Assembly: GCF_003334815.1 (NCBI RefSeq)
Contig: NZ_QOWO01000015.1
Strand: one strand, 5' to 3'
Length of the DNA stretch: 64,000 nt
Source of the DNA: Escherichia coli
Lineage (GTDB): Bacteria; Pseudomonadota; Gammaproteobacteria; Enterobacterales; Enterobacteriaceae
The translations under genes and the position numbers were made by a program. This document shows positions 1 through 51,892 of the stretch, one piece after another (positions within the stretch are counted from its first letter, which is position 1; each line of letters opens with the position of its first letter). The notes below the pieces were generated by a model. That model was given only the letters and a program-made list of their open reading frames with translations. It made no database searches and had not been told where the DNA came from.

Positions 1-77
1 TGTTTTTGTCATGTGAGTCACCTCTGACTGAGAGTTTACTCACTTAGCCGCGTGTCCACTATTGCTGGGTAAGATCA
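1..77 (-). mobile_element. IS3: IS3 terminal end (partial; element continues beyond window start), including the start of the IS3 orfA (insE)
   Basis: Reverse complement of 1-77 reads TGATCTTACCCAGCAATAGTGGACACGCGGCTAAGTGAGTAAACTCTCAGTCAGAGGTGACTCACATGACAAAAACA, which I recognise as the IS3 terminal inverted repeat followed by the orfA ATG. Confidence 0.75.
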
Positions 78-421
78 GTGCCTGGCACACGCGTTTGATG
101 GAAGACGGCGTTCAGGCAATGCGCGATTATCTTGCCGGACTGGATATCGCTTCGCCAGAGCATCAGGTTCTGATGAACGTAACAGCAAAAAGCGAGGTCG
201 CTCCGTCAATTATCAAAGAAAATCTCTCATTACACTTAACTCATACGGTGAAATGGACTGAATCTCTCGATACATTTCTGAATATGCCAACCCCGGTAGC
301 TTTCCTTGAAATAAGTAATAAGCCCTATTTGGGGAATATGTTAAATGATTTTGCTGGCGTGGATCAGCAACGAGTTATGCATTGTCGTAAAGCATTTAGT
401 GATGCAAAGGTATTCAAATGA
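62..421 (+). pseudogene. ymdE: ymdE: acyltransferase-like C-terminal fragment, 5' part displaced by the IS3 insertion
   Basis: 119-aa ORF with no proper ATG (TTG inside the IS3 end); translation resembles the C-terminal part of malonyl-CoA:ACP transacylase-like proteins; stop overlaps ycdU start. Confidence 0.55.
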
Positions 422-1404
422 TTCCTGATTATTTAACTTTTATTCGCTTTCAGGATAAACGAAATCTGATATACATTTATGCTATTGGACTTATTCTGAT
501 AGGCTTTTATTGGAAGAATGCAGGGTTTACTTTTCCATCAGAGGATATTGGTGTAGTTAGTGGGATTCTGGCTCTGGTGCTGTATAATTTTATTTTTGAT
601 CTCAAGGCGTACTGGGCTTATAAATGCGTCACGAAGAATATCGATTTTTCGTGGTTTAAGAAAAAGCAGAACCACAAAATAGAATTATTTCTTACACAAC
701 CTCTGGTGGCAGGATTTCTGTCGTTAATCATGTTGAGTGCAATGAGTTGGGGGCTATACCAGCTTCTACCCTCGTTATATGCGCTGTTCCTGATTTCGTT
801 ACTTGGGCCGTTGGTCATCTTTCTGCTGTTTCGGATGATCCGCACCAGTTATGTCAAGCAGGTCGCTATTTCAGTAGCGAAAAAAGTAAAATATAAAAGT
901 CTGACTCGCTATGTGCTGCTTTCGGTGTGCATCTCAACGGTTGTTAACCTGCTTACTATCAGCCCGTTGCGTAACAGTGATTCTTTTGTGACAGAGGGGC
1001 AGTGGTTAACGTTTAAATCGATAATTGCATTGCTCATTCTTTGTGGCGTAGTGTTGGCGATTAATCTGTTTTTTCTGCGCTTCTCCAAGCGGTACGCTTT
1101 TCTGGGCAGGCTTTTTTTGCAGGAAATCGATCTGTTTTTCTCCAGTGAAAATGCGTTGTCGACCTTTTTTGCCAAGCCGCTTTGGCTTCGGTTATTCATA
1201 TTGCTGGTTATTGAAGTGATGTGGATTACGCTGGTGTCGGTATTGGCAACGCTTGTAGAATGGCGGATTTGGTTTGAAGCCTATTTTTTACTCTGCTATG
1301 TACCGTGCTTAATTTACTATTTTTTCTATTGTCGATTCCTCTGGCATAACGATTTTATGATGGCATGTGACATGTATTTCCGTTGGGGGCATTTTAATAA
1401 GTGA
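418..1404 (+). CDS. ycdU: Inner membrane protein of unknown function YcdU (328 aa), AT-rich, multiple hydrophobic segments
   Basis: 987-bp ORF; hydrophobic translation; ATGA overlap with ymdE stop. Confidence 0.85.
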
Positions 1405-1536
1405 GGAAGTGATAGGAAGTGACCAGATAATACATATATGTTCTGTACTCTCTTGCGCATTTTGATTGTTGACTGAGTAACCAGACAGTTGATGTGCACG
1501 ATTTCCCCTCGCCCTAACAGACGTGGGCGGGGGCAC

Positions 1537-2156
1537 CCGGTGTGTGCAATATACGAAAAAAAAGCCCGTACTTTCGTACGAGCTCTTCTTTAAATATGGC
1601 GGTGAGGGGGGGATTGACTCGCTTCGCTCGCCCTGCGGGCAGCCCGCTCACTGCGTTCACGGTCTGTCCAACTGGCTGTCGCCAGTTGTCGAACCCCGGT
1701 CGGGGCTTCTCATCCCCCCGGTGTGTGCAATATACGAAAAAAAAGCCCGTACTTTCGTACGAGCTCTTCTTTAAATATGGCGGTGAGGGGGGGATTGACT
1801 CGCTTCGCTCGCCCTGCGGGCAGCCCGCTCACTGCGTTCACGGTCTGTCCAACTGGCTGTCGCCAGTTGTCGAACCCCGGTCGGGGCTTCTCATCCCCCC
1901 GGTGTGTGCAATATACGAAAAAAAAGCCCGTACTTTCGTACGAGCTCTTCTTTAAATATGGCGGTGAGGGGGGGATTGACTCGCTTCGCTCGCCCTGCGG
2001 GCAGCCCGCTCACTGCGTTCACGGTCTGTCCAACTGGCTGTCGCCAGTTGTCGAACCCCGGTCGGGGCTTCTCATCCCCCCGGTGTGTGCAATATACGAA
2101 AAAAAAGCCCGTACTTTCGTACGAGCTCTTCTTTAAATATGGCGGTGAGGGGGGGA
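1537..2156. repeat. Tandem direct repeat array, 181-bp unit x about 3.4 copies, apparently identical copies, ending in the 3' end of serX
   Basis: Identical ORF translations restart at 1542, 1723, 1904 and 2085 (period 181); each unit contains tggcggtgaggggggatt (a copy of the tRNA-Ser 3' end) and the hairpin gcccgtactttcgtacgagc with an A/T run. Confidence 0.9.
2096..2139 (-). terminator. Rho-independent terminator of serX (hairpin plus T-run on the minus strand); the same hairpin recurs in each 181-bp repeat unit
   Basis: Minus strand reads gagctcgtacgaaagtacgggc followed by tttttttt immediately 3' of the tRNA. Confidence 0.6.
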
Positions 2157-2227
2157 TTCGAACCCCCGATACGTTGCCGTATACACACTTTCCAGGCGTG
2201 CTCCTTCAGCCACTCGGACACCTCACC
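2140..2227 (-). tRNA. serX: tRNA-Ser (anticodon GGA), 88 nt with long variable arm
   Basis: Reverse complement GGTGAGGTGTCCGAGTGGCTGAAGGAGCACGCCTGGAAAGTGTGTATACGGCAACGTATCGGGGGTTCGAATCCCCC...CACCGCCA; T-loop GGTTCGAATCC, CCA end, GGA anticodon. Confidence 0.95.
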
Positions 2228-5425: not shown

Positions 5426-6259
5426 TCAGGATTCCGGTGGAACCGACATATGGCGGTATTTCACCAGAATGTCATTCTGCCGTTCTGCTTTATTTTGCAA
5501 ATCCCACAGACCACGGTCGATACCATCATTAATCAGGAAAATGACCCCTGTTTCGATAGCCGACATCAGGCACAGCATAACAGGTTCGTTCGAGGTGTAA
5601 CCCACTTCCCCTTCAAGCAAGCGCTGGTAGTCAATAAAGCGGAAAACCCCGGCCTGAACTTCATAGGAAAGTATCGTCTTACTGGTGTTCACCGAAGAAA
5701 GGATCTCGCCGGTACTCACATTGACGACGCGCAGGTTCACGGCAATCTGATCGAGCTGGTATTGCGTGTCGGCACCGATGCCAAAATATCTTGCCCCAAC
5801 CCCGCCAGATTTGACGTTGCTTTCATAACCGATAATCGAACCTTCAACCATGATATTTGCCGCCGTTAAAGATTGCAGCGGGATTCGGTTATTAATGGCA
5901 ACCGTGCCGTTTTCTTGTGCCGCACGAATAATCTTGCGCTCGTTAAGCAGGTTTTGTAAGCCCTGGCGCTCCAGCGGTATAAACCAGCGAGAATCTTTCA
6001 GTGCCGTGACCAGCATTGCCGTGGCGCTTTGCGGAACAGCAGTGGAGAAGTTACTTGCCGGGTAGGGTTTAAATTGCCCGGTTTCGTCCTGAATGTTGTA
6101 TACCGAAACAAAGATTTTACCCGTCGGCGCTGGCAGATGGGTCAAATCTTTGTAGCTCTGAGCACGAGGCATTAATGTCGGTCTGGCGGCTTCTTTAGGC
6201 GGGGCGGTTAAGCATCCGCTCAGTAACATGACGGCAACCAAAAGAAATAAGCGCTGCAT
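5426..6259 (-). CDS. csgG: Curli secretion channel lipoprotein CsgG, 277 aa
   Basis: Translation MQRLFLLVAVMLLSGC... with lipobox; position in csgDEFG operon. Confidence 0.95.
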   Translation of the reverse strand: MQRLFLLVAVMLLSGCLTAPPKEAARPTLMPRAQSYKDLTHLPAPTGKIFVSVYNIQDETGQFKPYPASNFSTAVPQSATAMLVTALKDSRWFIPLERQGLQNLLNERKIIRAAQENGTVAINNRIPLQSLTAANIMVEGSIIGYESNVKSGGVGARYFGIGADTQYQLDQIAVNLRVVNVSTGEILSSVNTSKTILSYEVQAGVFRFIDYQRLLEGEVGYTSNEPVMLCLMSAIETGVIFLINDGIDRGLWDLQNKAERQNDILVKYRHMSVPPES

Positions 6260-6285
6260 GATTATTTTCCTTATGAAGCTGGGGC

Positions 6286-6702
6286 TTAAAAATCGGTTGA
6301 GTTATTTTGTAAACCCGAAACCTGGATGGTCGAGGTTTGTCCGGTTTTACGATCTGTCACGTTCAACTGCAATTGACCATCGCGGTTGGCAATATCGACA
6401 ATATAATCGTTGGTCACCATGCGGCCCGGTTTACCGGTATTAATATTCGACAGTAGCCCACCTAAAATTTGTGACTGGATGGCCTGAGTAAAGTTATCTA
6501 ACGCTGAGGGTGTTTCAATACCAAAGTCATCGTTATAGCTCGGATCTTTATAAGAGTTTTGGGCCTGAGCGCTATTTAATAAAAAAGCGCCATTATTTGG
6601 GTTACCACCAAAGTTTGGATTACGGAACTGGAAAGTCATGGTTCCAGCCCAACTTAATGGCGAAATAAGCATGAGTAGAACTACTGCATGTTTGACACGC
6701 AT
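6286..6702 (-). CDS. csgF: Curli assembly component CsgF, 138 aa
   Basis: Recognised translation [38 protein letters not shown]... Confidence 0.95.
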
Positions 6703-6726
6703 TGCAGCCTCCGAACAATTTTTTAT

Positions 6727-7116
6727 TTAGAATTCATCATGCGCCAAATCGCCCGTACTTAATAACGCCTGATTTATCTGGCGACGATTTAGTGCTTCTT
6801 CAGTTTGAATCAGTGCAAAGACGACAGTTTTCTCGAAGTCTCTTTTCAACGGAAATAAAAAAGTCTGGAAAATAACGTCCTGATTGACCGTTATAGTGAT
6901 CCAGCTTCCCCATCGTGCACTGGGCCTTTCATTAATCGTTAAGTTACCCGTATAGTCACTTTCCCATTTATCACTAAAGGCTCGGTAAAAATCATGGCCA
7001 ATAGATGAAACAGTATGGTCAGTTAGCAATCCCGGGACTTCTACCTCAACGGCGTGAAGATTCCCTGCGGCGAACAGAAATTCTGCCGCCACAATCCAGC
7101 GTAAATAACGTTTCAT
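6727..7116 (-). CDS. csgE: Curli secretion specificity factor CsgE, 129 aa
   Basis: Recognised translation [31 protein letters not shown]... Confidence 0.95.
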
Positions 7117-7120
7117 GGCT

Positions 7121-7771
<651 letters not shown>

Positions 7772-8525
7772 GATGAAACCCCGCTTTTTTTATTGATCGC
7801 ACACCTGACAGCTGCCTCTAAAATAGAAGCACCAGAAGTACTGACAGATGTTGCACTGCTGTGTGTAGTAATAAATCAGCCCTAAATGGGTAAAATATAA
7901 AACTAATGGATTACATCTGATTTCAATCTAGCCATTACAAATCTTAAATCAAGTGTTAAACATGTAACTAAATGTAACTCGTTATATTAAAATGTTAACT
8001 TTAAGGTTTTATTAAGTTTAGAAATGATAGAAAAGTTGTACATTTGGTTTTTATTGCACAATTTTAAAAAATCATACAAATGGTGATAACTTACTAATAA
8101 TGCATATAAAAAATATTTCGGTGTAGTCCTTTCGTCATGTAAAACGTTCTTGTTTTTTCTCCACACCTCCGTGGACAATTTTTTACTGCAAAAAGACGAG
8201 GTTTGTCACGGCTTGTGCGCAAGACATATCGCAGCAATCAGCGACGGGCAAGAAGAATGACTGTCTGGTGCTTTTTGATAGCGGAAAACGGAGATTTAAA
8301 AGAAAACAAAATATTTTTTTGCGTAGATAACAGCGTATTTACGTGGGTTTTAATACTTTGGTATGAACTAAAAAAGAAAAATACAACGCGCGGGTGAGTT
8401 ATTAAAAATATTTCCGCAGACATACTTTCCATCGTAACGCAGCGTTAACAAAATACAGGTTGCGTTAACAACCAAGTTGAAATGATTTAATTTCTTAAAT
8501 GTACGACCAGGTCCAGGGTGACAAC
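7772..8525. promoter_or_regulatory. Divergent csgD/csgB intergenic control region (long, AT-rich; contains the csgDEFG and csgBAC promoters and the csgD 5' UTR)
   Basis: 754-bp non-coding AT-rich gap between divergent csgD and csgB; known from the literature as a multi-regulator hub. Confidence 0.8.
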
Positions 8526-13516: not shown

Positions 13517-13798
13517 ATATGGTTAACTAATCTCGGATTTTTCGTCTTATCCCTGTCGGGTTATGCCTTTAGGCTTGTTGCCATAGTGACACCGACCTGA
13601 CCGCGCCAGGCGCAGGCTTCAAGGTTTTTATGCATAGCATCATCGCTACCACTAACCAGAATGGAAGCGTCTGTAAGACGGTTGATAAATAAATTTGCTG
13701 GCAAACCCTACACGAAGTCGATGCTTCTGTCTTTAGGAGAAGCACGGAAAGTGAAAACGGTTGCAATCAGGTGCTTAATCCATGAGCCAGCGTGCTGA

Positions 13799-17981
<4,183 letters not shown>

Positions 17982-17991
17982 AAACGTAGTT

Positions 17992-18090
17992 GCCTGATGC
18001 GCTACGCTTATCAGGCCTACATCGTTCCTGCAATTTATTGATTTTGCAAGACTTTGTGGGTCGGATAAGGCGTTCACGCCGCATCCGGCA
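17992..18090. repeat. BIME/RIP-type element: two REP palindromes flanking a central motif
   Basis: gcctgatgcgctacgcttatcaggcctac ... caatttattgattttgcaag ... ggtcggataaggcgttcacgccgcatccggca. Confidence 0.8.
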
Positions 18091-27183: not shown

Positions 27184-27234
27184 TAATCTCTATGCTCCGG
27201 CTGAAGGGATGTTTTTGCCGGACACAAAGGATAA

Positions 27235-48943: not shown

Positions 48944-49304
48944 CGTAACTTACTCATTATTCTTACATTGACGACTAAGCTGCGGGCAAAGTAACGCCTT
49001 TCCGGGTGTGAACCGATGGCCTCGTGTCTAGTCGCGTCGCCAACCTCACGGTTATCGTCAGCTCAAAGAGGCGCAGAGTGTCGGTTGCCCGTTTTTCATG
49101 CGGAAAAACAGCGCAATTATCAAAGAAACAGACTGGGTATTACTCTCCAGAAATATTTCCATCTACCGGTAAGGACTGCAACCCGCAGCCCGCTAACTGC
49201 CTGAAAGATCAATACGTCTTACGCCATTGCTGCGTGGATGATCGGTCGGGCAAAATGGGTTATTCCGTAAAATTTCTTGTTTTAACAAGGATGGACACGG
49301 AAAC
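48944..49304 (-). promoter_or_regulatory. Long rne 5' untranslated leader (autoregulatory)
   Basis: Non-coding region upstream of the rne ATG; extent taken from the known 361-nt leader, not determined from the sequence. Confidence 0.55.
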
Positions 49305-50586: not shown

Positions 50587-51172
50587 CTATCCCATCAGCG
50601 GGTTTTTCCCTTCCCGACGTAACATCTGACACAGCGCGATTAGCGGTAAACCAACCAGCGTGTTAGGATCACGCCCCTCTAAACGCTCAAACAGCGTAAT
50701 GCCAAATCCTTCACTCTTAAAGCTACCCGCGCAGTGCAGGGGATGCTCTTTACGCACGTAATTATCAATCTCCGCCTCGCTCAGGTGACGGAAATGGACG
50801 TCAAAAGGCTCCACTTCTGTTTGCAGATGCCCATTCGCCGAATTAAACAACGCCAGTCCAGTAATAGAAGGTGACGATATTGCCGCTGGCTTTGCGTAAT
50901 TGCAGACGGGCATTTTCTTCCGTTAACGGTTTACCGGTGATTTCGCCATCAAGAACACATACCTGGTCTGAACCAATAATTAAATGATCCGGATAACGTG
51001 ACGCCAGAGATTGCGCTTTTTCTTGTGCCAGTCGAAGCACCAACTGTCGCGGTGATTCGTCGCTGCGTGGGGTTTCGTCGACCTCTGGTGCTGCACATTC
51101 AAAAGAGATTTGTAGTTTTTCCAGAAGAGCGCGACGCCATGGCGAGGTGGAGGCTAAAATAAGTTTAGGCAT
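50587..51172 (-). pseudogene. yceF: Maf-family nucleotide pyrophosphatase yceF interrupted by an apparent +1 frameshift (586 bp instead of 585)
   Basis: Two overlapping minus-strand ORFs (50843-51211 and 50587-50913) in different frames together span one Maf-like protein; the frame switches at ttctattactgg near 50861-50866. Confidence 0.75.
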
Positions 51173-51179
51173 ATTTTTT

Positions 51180-51330
51180 TCCATCAGATATAGCGTATTG
51201 ATGATAGCCATTTTAAACTATGCGCTTCGTTTTGCAGGTTGATGTTTGTTATCAGCACTGAACGAAAATAAAGCAGTAACCCGCAATGTGTGCGAATTAT
51301 TGGCAAAAGGCAACCACAGGCTGCCTTTTT
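51180..51330 (+). ncRNA. sraB: Candidate SraB small RNA in the yceF-yceD intergenic region; boundaries approximate
   Basis: 198-bp non-coding gap; terminator-like aggctgcctttttc at about 51315-51330; identity rests on the known location of sraB, not on a structure I could verify. Confidence 0.3.
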
Positions 51331-51332
51331 CT

Positions 51333-51892
<560 letters not shown>

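What the first reader, a model, noticed from the sequence alone, without database searches (positions are those of the whole stretch)
1..2227. Decayed integration islet on the 3' side of serX: IS3 end, truncated ymdE, AT-rich ycdU, att-like repeats
The window opens inside an IS3 whose terminus (ending at 77) directly abuts the reading frame of an acyltransferase-like gene fragment (ymdE). This is followed by ycdU, a visibly AT-rich membrane protein gene of unknown function, and then the att-like repeat array and the tRNA. All lie on the 3' side of serX, the side where tRNA-targeting elements integrate. The arrangement looks like a remnant of horizontally acquired DNA rather than core chromosome.
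Basis: partly seen in the sequence, partly recalled or inferred. Interest (0 to 1): 0.4.

Follow-up and report, generated by a model that had tools for sequence, protein, structure and literature searches.

The report
IS3 deletion scar beside serX

Summary

ymdE'-ycdU is accessory DNA: about half of complete E. coli genomes carry it. It is not the stump of an element that integrated at serX. It is the right-hand tail of a 15-gene fatty-acid/polyketide-like synthesis and export cluster that is intact at this locus in O157:H7 as part of O-island 47. The window lacks exactly 31,741 bp of that segment and has IS3 in its place.

Other strains share the same left IS3 junction but have different right junctions, so the deletions are nested and IS3-associated. 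The fragment diverges from O157 as much as the flanking backbone does. No integrase and no distal att copy exists.

The "att-like repeats" are Rfam RtT RNA (RF00391), already labelled so in RefSeq. They are structured, tRNA-linked units also found at tyrT/tyrV, at serW and in other bacteria. Each unit does contain the 14-bp serX core used by OI-48-type islands.

Verdict: ordinary, already known.

The parts
1..77 (-). Left end (IRL, 5' leader and first codons of insE) of IS3; the rest of the 1258-bp element lies outside the window
   Evidence: Sequence. 100% matches to annotated IS3 copies. The full element and both junctions were read. The flanks are TTT on one side and GTG on the other, so there is no 3-bp target duplication.
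78..421 (+). ymdE': the C-terminal 113 codons plus stop of a FabD-like ACP S-malonyltransferase; a pseudogene fragment
   Evidence: ORF. fabD/mdcH profile hits to the C-terminal part only. The full-length O157 protein is 313 aa and carries GHSVG near residues 95-99. The window fragment starts at AWHTRLM near residue 201, so the Ser nucleophile is missing.
418..1404 (+). ycdU: an intact 328-aa all-helical membrane protein, and the last gene of the lost cluster
1405..1535 (.). Unique spacer between ycdU and the repeat array
   Evidence: Present and 98.5% identical in O157, which has no repeat units.
1536..2158 (-). Tandem array of 181-bp units, 3.4 copies, 100% identical. Each unit is 101 nt of RtT core plus an 80-nt copy of the serX 3' 19 nt, terminator and flank
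   Evidence: Tandem Repeats Finder. Unit boundaries come from comparison with the zero-repeat state in O157.
1597..1733 (-). RtT RNA copy 3 (Rfam RF00391)
   Evidence: 46.3 bits against a gathering score of 45.
1778..1914 (-). RtT RNA copy 2
1959..2095 (-). RtT RNA copy 1 (nearest serX)
   Evidence: The unit folds at -79.8 kcal/mol, z = -5.1.
2099..2134 (-). serX intrinsic terminator (hairpin plus U8). Identical copies lie at 1918-1953, 1737-1772 and 1556-1591
   Evidence: Fold (unit positions 6-41). The scan picked up the same hairpins on the opposite strand.
2140..2227 (-). serX, tRNA-Ser(GGA). Its last 14 nt (2140-2153) are the att core of OI-48/SRL-type islands, and the same 14-mer recurs at 1597, 1778 and 1959
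   Evidence: ARAGORN. Rfam tRNA 53.8 bits. 14-mer positions. Core sequence from PMC3064760.
2262..2290 (-). Promoter-like site upstream of serX (TTGACC-17-TAAATT)
   Evidence: Consensus scan only. The number of sites found equals the chance expectation, so this is weak evidence.

Best explanation
The stretch combines two unrelated, already described things that happen to lie side by side downstream of serX.

(1) Bases 1-1404 are a deletion scar. The common ancestor of K-12-like and O157-like E. coli carried a long accessory segment between dgcT (ycdT) and serX, which O157:H7 keeps as O-island 47. It holds regulators, a fimbrial operon, a two-partner secretion pair and a 15-gene type-II FAS/PKS-like synthesis and export cluster: AcpS, KR, DH, ACP, GcvT-like, KS-KS, KS, ABC/FtsX transporter, LolA-like, FabD-like YmdE and YcdU. 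An IS3 sits in the 3' flank of dgcT, and deletions running rightward from its IRL end removed 31.7 kb. What remains is the last third of ymdE, which is catalytically dead because the GHSxG serine is gone, and an intact orphan ycdU.

(2) Bases 1536-2158 are a tandem array of Ser-type RtT units. These are structured RNA elements that follow certain tRNA genes and end with a copy of that tRNA's 3' end. The array changes in copy number, most likely by unequal recombination between the 181-bp units.

Shown directly: the anatomy, the junction series, the homology and the distribution. Inferred: that IS3 caused the deletions, the order of the deletions, and that RtT copies beyond the first terminator are transcribed only by read-through.
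For: Deletion scar:
- O157:H7 strain 611 has dgcT, about 31.7 kb, an intact 942-bp ymdE, ycdU and serX in that order.
- The window lacks 31,741 bp between ...AAAGCGGCATTT|TAGCGG and ...GTGTGAGCG|GTGCCTGGCA and has IS3 there. This matches published OI-47: 31,727 bp, z1528-z1556 (PMC8565820).

Nested junctions with one constant left junction:
- ECGC74 type keeps 185 bp more of ymdE.
- The window represents the K-12 type.
- In the B/C41(DE3) type, IS3 abuts an RtT unit and ymdE' and ycdU are gone.
- There is no 3-bp target duplication.
- Census of 5426 genomes: about 1478 K-12 type, 716 ECGC74 type, 126 B type, 390 with ymdE running on past the ECGC74 break point (intact in the O157 strain read), and at most 12 joined without IS3.

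Descent and cluster context:
- Divergence from O157 equals that of the backbone.
- The same 10-gene block ends in FabD-like plus YcdU in four other taxa.
- Cluster enzymology comes from NCBIfam.

RtT array:
- Three hits above the Rfam gathering score, and RefSeq annotates them as 'RtT sRNA'.
- The units are homologous to the tyrT/tyrV units of K-12.
- Of 28 consensus pairs, 18 show compensatory changes across 17 sequences.
- 119 of 193 Ser-type cores in metagenome contigs lie within 1.5 kb downstream of tRNA-Ser(GGA), and their 3' ends track the local tRNA variant.
- serW carries an array as well.
- Copy number runs from 0 to 11 places per genome, and the core is present in 3366 of 5426 genomes.
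Against: - No strain was found with IS3 in the dgcT flank and OI-47 still intact. That intermediate, which should show a 3-bp duplication, is hypothetical.
- Recombination between two IS3 copies would leave the same scars as IS-end-mediated adjacent deletion.
- Whether the OI-47-like segment was itself acquired at this spot long ago cannot be decided. No outgroup Escherichia species could be examined because the genome-contig scan was lost to queue errors.
- Published surveys describe full OI-47 as confined to the O157:H7/O55:H7/O145:H28 lineage (PMC10877973). That would also fit late gain there, if it were not for the remnant in K-12.
- The RtT score of 46.3 is only just above the gathering threshold of 45.
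- Expression of the serX RtT copies was not tested, and each is preceded by a strong terminator.
Confidence: 0.85

Rival explanations
1. Bases 1-2227 are the decayed stump of a tRNA-targeting integrative element that entered at the 3' end of serX, and the 181-bp repeats are att scars left by successive integrations and excisions.
For: - serX is a proven attB for P4-type-integrase islands (PMC3064760). The junction TGGCGGTGAGGGGG|ACCGCC...int was seen in ATCC 43889 and E110019.
- Every repeat unit contains that 14-mer within a 19-nt copy of the tRNA 3' end.
- The region is variable among strains.
- O157, which hosts or hosted OI-48, has zero RtT units. That could result from integrase recombination between the outermost copies.
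Against: - There is no integrase and no distal att copy.
- Islands at serX lie between serX and ycdU, so ymdE and ycdU are outside them.
- The cluster that ymdE and ycdU belong to is not tRNA-linked in four other taxa.
- Divergence equals that of the backbone.
- The repeats belong to a structured RNA family also found at tyrT/tyrV and serW and in many other bacteria. They show compensatory base-pair changes, which att scars would not show.
- Each repeat duplicates 80 nt of native flank including the terminator. That pattern indicates tandem duplication, not insertion.
Confidence: 0.07
2. ymdE'-ycdU is not mere debris. It is a retained, selected two-gene module with a function of its own, as proposed for mastitis-associated phylogroup A strains.
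For: - Goldstone et al. found both genes in 98.5% of mastitis isolates against about 80% of phylogroup A, and saw no mutational decay (PMC4951805).
- ycdU pN/pS is 0.11 (window versus O157) and 0.14 between two post-deletion lineages.
- ycdU is annotated intact in all sampled rows.
Against: - YmdE' lacks its first ~200 residues, including the GHSVG nucleophile.
- The operon's ACP, KS and transporter genes are gone.
- Substitution counts are tiny, 9-14 changes.
- About 126 B-type genomes have lost both genes to the same IS3.
- RNA-seq counts listed for ycdU in a K-12 study are low, 53 and 64 (PMC10294691).
- This reading could hold for ycdU alone, and it is compatible with the best explanation of the locus's origin.
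Confidence: 0.2
3. The K-12 arrangement is ancestral, and O157 gained OI-47 by insertion into this site.
For: OI-47 is called an O157 'island' and is reported mainly from the O157:H7/O55:H7/O145:H28 lineage.
Against: - ymdE is a continuous 313-aa gene in O157 and the window holds only its last third. An insertion cannot create the missing two-thirds in frame.
- The 10-gene block with full-length ymdE is conserved in other genera.
- IS3 occupies the gap without a target duplication, and other strains show nested right junctions.
Confidence: 0.02

Closest known systems
O-island 47 of E. coli O157:H7 EDL933 (z1528-z1556, 31,727 bp) and its K-12 boundary
   Same: The window's IS3|ymdE' junction is the right boundary of OI-47. 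The 31,741 bp missing relative to O157 strain 611 matches the published size, and ymdE' and ycdU are 98.5-98.6% identical to the O157 genes.
   Different: The window holds only the last 344 bp of ymdE plus ycdU. 'Island' here reflects a deletion in the K-12 lineage rather than a demonstrated insertion in O157.
RtT RNA (Rfam RF00391; the rtT/rttR repeats of the tyrT-tyrV operon)
   Same: Tandem units of about 180 bp lie downstream of a tRNA gene, each ending in the 3' 19 nt of that tRNA. The core is homologous and the fold is shared, and the score exceeds the gathering threshold.
   Different: The units are linked to tRNA-Ser(GGA) rather than tRNA-Tyr. The tRNA-like stems are changed to match tRNA-Ser (GGGGG/CCCCC instead of GAAGG/CCTTC). 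The period is 181 rather than 178. Each unit also carries a copy of the serX intrinsic terminator, which the tyrT units lack.
IS3 (IS3 family) with flanking deletion
   Same: The terminal 77 nt are identical to IS3. The element is full length in K-12 records and is annotated as such.
   Different: It has no 3-bp target duplication. One flank is constant while the other varies among strains, the signature of IS-associated deletion rather than simple insertion.
serX/serW-integrated islands (OI-48/OI-43, SpLE1, the tellurite-resistance and adherence island, and the SRL PAI)
   Same: They use the same tRNA gene and the same 14-bp core TGGCGGTGAGGGGG, and ycdU is their known upstream flank (PMC3064760).
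   Different: The window contains no such island, no integrase and no island-derived DNA. serX is unoccupied here.

Membership tests
RtT RNA (RF00391) | Match to the Rfam covariance model at or above the gathering score | tested here: met
   Three copies at 46.3 bits against a threshold of 45, full-length model match 1-130. The margin is narrow.
RtT RNA (RF00391) | Lies downstream of a tRNA gene on the same strand and ends with that tRNA's 3' terminal sequence | tested here: met
   All copies are on the minus strand, 3' of serX, and end in AATCCCCCCCTCACCGCCA, which is the serX 3' 19 nt.
RtT RNA (RF00391) | Conserved secondary structure supported by covariation | tested here: met
   Of 28 consensus pairs, 18 show double compensatory changes in 17 Ser- and Tyr-type sequences. 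The single-unit fold has z = -5.1. The alignment is small and its sequences are related.
RtT RNA (RF00391) | Released as an RNA by processing of the tRNA primary transcript | not testable with these tools
   No expression data could be analysed. A strong terminator precedes every copy.
IS3 | Terminal inverted repeat and end sequence of IS3 | tested here: met
   Bases 1-77 are 100% identical to annotated IS3 copies. The ends TGATCCTACC... and ...GGGTAAGATCA were read.
IS3 | 3-bp direct target duplication flanking a simple insertion | tested here: not met
   The flanks are ...GCATTT and GTGCCT.... This is the outcome expected after a flanking deletion, and it does not argue against the element being IS3.
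tRNA-integrated genomic island (remnant) | Tyrosine-recombinase (P4-type) integrase gene or pseudogene next to the tRNA or att site | tested here: not met
   There is no such ORF in 1-2400. Integrases are seen only in strains carrying OI-48-type islands.
tRNA-integrated genomic island (remnant) | Direct repeat of the tRNA 3' end at the distal boundary of the segment | tested here: not met
   The 19-mer at up to 3 mismatches occurs only in the array and in serX within the window. In O157 it occurs only in serX across efeU..serX.
tRNA-integrated genomic island (remnant) | Variable presence among strains | tested here: met
   2668 of 5426 genomes carry ymdE'-ycdU. This feature is not specific to integrase-borne islands.
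tRNA-integrated genomic island (remnant) | Composition or codon usage deviating from the backbone | tested here: inconclusive
   ycdU GC is 0.405, 3.5 sd below the mean, but its GC3 of 0.480 equals that of neighbouring core genes. The O157 cluster genes range from 0.41 to 0.54.
ACP S-malonyltransferase (FabD family, PF00698) | Full acyltransferase domain with the GHSxG serine nucleophile | tested here: not met
   Only the C-terminal 113 residues remain. GHSVG lies near residues 95-99 of the 313-aa O157 protein, upstream of the break. The homology is clear, but the window copy is a pseudogene fragment.

The most novel reading that the evidence does not exclude
Ser-type RtT units may be more than passive repeats. 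They mimic the 3' half of the adjacent tRNA: a T-arm-like hairpin, plus a closing stem that pairs with the copied tRNA 3' end. They co-vary with the local tRNA (Tyr versus Ser, and CCCCCCC versus CCCCCTC variants), and each carries the exact 14-bp core used by the OI-48/SRL-type integrase. They could therefore be a self-amplifying, tRNA-templated element, or they could act as spare or decoy att sites that shape island gain, loss and array size at serX and serW. The zero-copy state in the O157 lineage would then be a product of integrase-mediated recombination.
Probability: 0.1. Interest if true: 0.55.

Novelty: already known. Interest (0 to 1): 0.15.

Why it matters
It matters little for discovery. 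Every part is already annotated in RefSeq: IS3, the partial ACP S-malonyltransferase, ycdU, RtT sRNA and tRNA-Ser. The strain-to-strain variability of the ymdE-ycdU region, OI-47 and the serX islands are all described in the literature.

The work does clarify two things. First, 'O-island 47' is at least in part a K-12-lineage deletion mediated by IS3, with a nested series of break points shared by thousands of genomes. Second, the serX repeats belong to the RtT family rather than being att scars.

Two small open questions remain. One is what the conserved FAS-like/export cluster and its terminal membrane protein YcdU make or do. The other is what RtT units are for, and why they copy the 3' end of their neighbouring tRNA.

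Tried and rejected
- Genome-contig scan. A scan of one genome per species with a YcdU alignment was meant to date the cluster in other Escherichia species. I substituted four encoding-contig look-ups and one metagenome DNA-pattern scan.
- The 224-aa 'longer YmdE' (P0001) in E110019. It turned out to be an ORF reading out of an internally deleted IS3, not a longer gene.
- Literature on RtT at serX. Only a passing mention of rttR at tyrT was found.
- Promoter scan of 1-2500. It found no more sites than chance, so no claim is made about how ycdU is transcribed.
- Composition as evidence of foreign origin. I rejected it because GC3 is backbone-like.
- Counting the K-12-type junction directly. This was confounded because the tool joins pieces up to about 535 bp apart. 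The K-12-type number (~1478) is therefore a subtraction (2194 - 716), not a direct count.
Full report
**What is in the sequence**

Window 1-77 is the end of an IS3 on the minus strand (reverse complement TGATCTTACCCAGCAAT...). It is identical to annotated IS3 copies on many replicons. In K-12-type records the element is 1258 bp and lies 10 bp after the dgcT (ycdT) stop codon.

From base 78 an open frame continues to 421. It matches only the C-terminal part of FabD-type ACP S-malonyltransferases. ycdU (418-1404) overlaps its stop codon and encodes a 328-aa protein with no family assignment. After a 131-bp unique spacer comes a perfect tandem array, period 181 and 3.4 copies, at 1536-2158. The array runs into the 3' end of serX, tRNA-Ser(GGA), at 2140-2227 on the minus strand.

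**What IS3 removed**

A protein search with the longest E. coli fragment found full-length 304-306-aa relatives in other Enterobacterales. In one of them the gene is next to last in a block: KS-KS fusion, KS, unknown, ABC ATPase, unknown, FtsX-type permease, LolA-like protein, unknown, FabD-like protein and a YcdU homologue.

The same block, preceded by AcpS, a FabG-like reductase, a FabZ-like dehydratase, an ACP and a GcvT-like protein, is intact at this very locus in E. coli O157:H7 strain 611. There it lies between dgcT and serX, together with an EAL protein, a ToxR-like regulator, a fimbrial operon and a two-partner secretion pair.

Aligning the junctions shows that the window lacks exactly 31,741 bp of the O157 sequence. 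The left break is ...AAAGCGGCATTT|TAGCGG after dgcT, and the right break is ...GTGTGAGCG|GTGCCTGGCA inside ymdE. IS3 sits in between without a 3-bp target duplication. This is O-island 47, published as 31,727 bp, z1528-z1556 (PMC8565820).

The O157 YmdE has 313 residues and carries the GHSVG nucleophile motif near residue 97. The window copy begins at AWHTRLM near residue 201, so it cannot be an active transacylase.

**A nested deletion series**

The left IS3 junction is identical in every IS3-bearing strain read, but the right junction differs:

| Junction type | State | Genomes (of 5426) |
|---|---|---|
| ECGC74 type | keeps 185 bp more of ymdE | 716 |
| K-12 type (the window) | ymdE' of 344 bp | about 1478 (by subtraction) |
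| B type, C41(DE3) | IS3 abuts TGACTCGCTTCG inside an RtT unit; ymdE', ycdU and part of the array are gone | 126 |
| ymdE continues past the ECGC74 break | O157 and relatives; ymdE confirmed intact in the O157 strain read | 390 |
| No IS3 | dgcT flank joined to ymdE', as in OkiPb01714 | at most 12 |

The census used junction-spanning 70-mers. E110019 has an internally deleted IS3 with the ECGC74-type junction. One O15:H12 strain lacks everything from pgaD to ycdU and has an IS5 there instead.

One constant flank, one variable flank and no target duplication is the classic picture of IS-associated flanking deletion. That IS3 itself caused the deletions, and in what order, is inference.

**Is it foreign DNA at a tRNA?**

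ymdE'-ycdU is present in 2668 of 5426 genomes, always at 95% identity or more and at one locus. It is therefore accessory, as Goldstone et al. already reported (PMC4951805). Several tests speak against a serX-targeted integrative origin:

- There is no integrase.
- There is no further copy of the serX 3' 19-mer at up to 3 mismatches, either in the 64-kb window or across the 46 kb from efeU to serX in O157.
- In four other taxa the block has different neighbours, and no tRNA gene lies in the 10 kb fetched on each side.
- Window-versus-O157 identity of ymdE' (98.5%) and ycdU (98.6%) matches that of ghrA, ycdX, ycdY, ycdZ and dgcT (98.2-99.4%).
- ycdU's low GC (0.405) is not mirrored at third codon positions. 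Its GC3 of 0.480 compares with 0.476 for ghrA and 0.467 for ycdX.

Real serX islands do exist. In ATCC 43889 and E110019, a tellurite/urease/iha island with a P4-type integrase starts right after TGGCGGTGAGGGGG downstream of ycdU. This agrees with Bielaszewska et al. (PMC3064760). Those islands lie between serX and ycdU, so ycdU is their outside flank and not their content.

**The repeats**

Each repeat scores above the Rfam gathering threshold for RtT RNA (RF00391): 46.3 against 45, on the minus strand at 1597-1733, 1778-1914 and 1959-2095. RefSeq labels them 'RtT sRNA'.

Aligned with the four RtT units of the K-12 tyrT-tyrV locus, the cores are clearly homologous. The two stems that imitate tRNA parts differ exactly as the tRNAs do:

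- Tyr: GGGGAAGG...CCTTCCCC and CTTCGACCAAGGTTCGA.
- Ser: GGGGGG...CCCCCC and CCCCGACCGGGGTTCGA.

Comparison with O157, which has no unit, shows the make-up of each 181-bp unit. It is 101 nt of RtT core plus an 80-nt duplicate of the serX 3' 19 nt, its hairpin-U8 terminator and flank. One unit folds into the terminator followed by a multibranch structure closed by GGGGGGAU/AUCCCCCC, at -79.8 kcal/mol with z = -5.1.

A metagenome pattern scan returned 193 Ser-type cores on 120 contigs. Of these, 119 lie within 1.5 kb downstream of tRNA-Ser(GGA), and their 3' ends follow local tRNA variants. An alignment of 14 diverse Ser-type and 3 Tyr-type units gives 28 consensus pairs, 18 of them with compensatory changes.

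In E. coli the Ser-type core occurs in 3366 of 5426 genomes, with 1-11 places per genome and a median of 2. It also occurs downstream of serW, for example five units in strain 190693. The array is thus a copy-number-variable member of a known structured-RNA family, not a set of integration scars. It is nevertheless true that each unit contains the 14-bp island att core. Whether integrases ever use those copies is untested.

**ycdU**

**Verdict**

The region is a decayed accessory segment next to a real island hotspot. Its decay, however, is an IS3-associated 31.7-kb deletion of an OI-47-like segment, and the repeats are RtT units. Everything is already annotated or published, so interest is low.

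Noticed in passing
L139 6697-7679 (E. coli strain 190693, clpA-serW-infA): The other tRNA-Ser(GGA) gene, serW, carries its own array of five RtT units, about 94% identical to the serX units. RtT arrays are therefore a property of both serW and serX, which are also the two integration sites of the OI-43/OI-48 islands.
   Followed up: partly
L034, L060, L083, L113 (metagenome contigs; RtT-like cores near tRNA-Ser(CGA)): A longer RtT-like variant (144-147 nt) lies downstream of tRNA-Ser(CGA). My end-finding pattern places its 3' end at ...AATCCCAATGAAGCGGCCA, which does not match that tRNA's 3' end (TCGAATCCCCCCCTCTCCGCCA). This differs from the Ser(GGA) and Tyr types.
   Followed up: no
L042, L096, L056, L061, L085, L022 (metagenome contigs): In several unidentified bacteria, two tRNA-Ser(GGA) genes lie about 3 kb apart and each is followed by one or two RtT units. 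The genes between them were not examined.
   Followed up: no
L003 13519-14327 (E. coli OkiPb01714): Five copies of the serX 3' 14-mer are spaced about 180 bp apart, but only three RtT hits are above threshold. The unit at about 13700-13836 must be diverged or damaged.
   Followed up: no
window 1503-1531: A GC-rich inverted repeat (CCCCTCGCCC...GGGCGGGGG) sits in the unique spacer just before the array. It is conserved in O157 with one change in the loop region, and its role is unknown.
   Followed up: no
L002 (NZ_CP169634.1, labelled MG1655) 6001-8403: This 'MG1655' assembly is only 98.8% identical to the window over 2.4 kb, is 3 bp longer, and has no tRNA-Ser annotated at serX. These look like assembly errors rather than biology. 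I used the record for the left IS3 junction and for the tyrT-tyrV RtT units (locus L012). The left junction agrees with two other strains; the RtT units were not cross-checked against another K-12 record.
   Followed up: partly
window 7827-7918, 18013-18055, 27184-27233, 48968-49304, 51166-51334: Other known RNA elements in the window score above Rfam thresholds: ES056 near csgD, ES036, the PyrC leader, the rne 5' UTR and SraB. All are expected for this part of the E. coli chromosome.
   Followed up: no
L010 9358-24151 (O157:H7 strain 611): The 15-gene FAS/PKS-like plus ABC/LolA-like export cluster of OI-47 includes four proteins with no family hit at all (317, 218, 462 and 328 aa). I saw no product or function for the cluster in the four OI-47 papers consulted.
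   Followed up: partly
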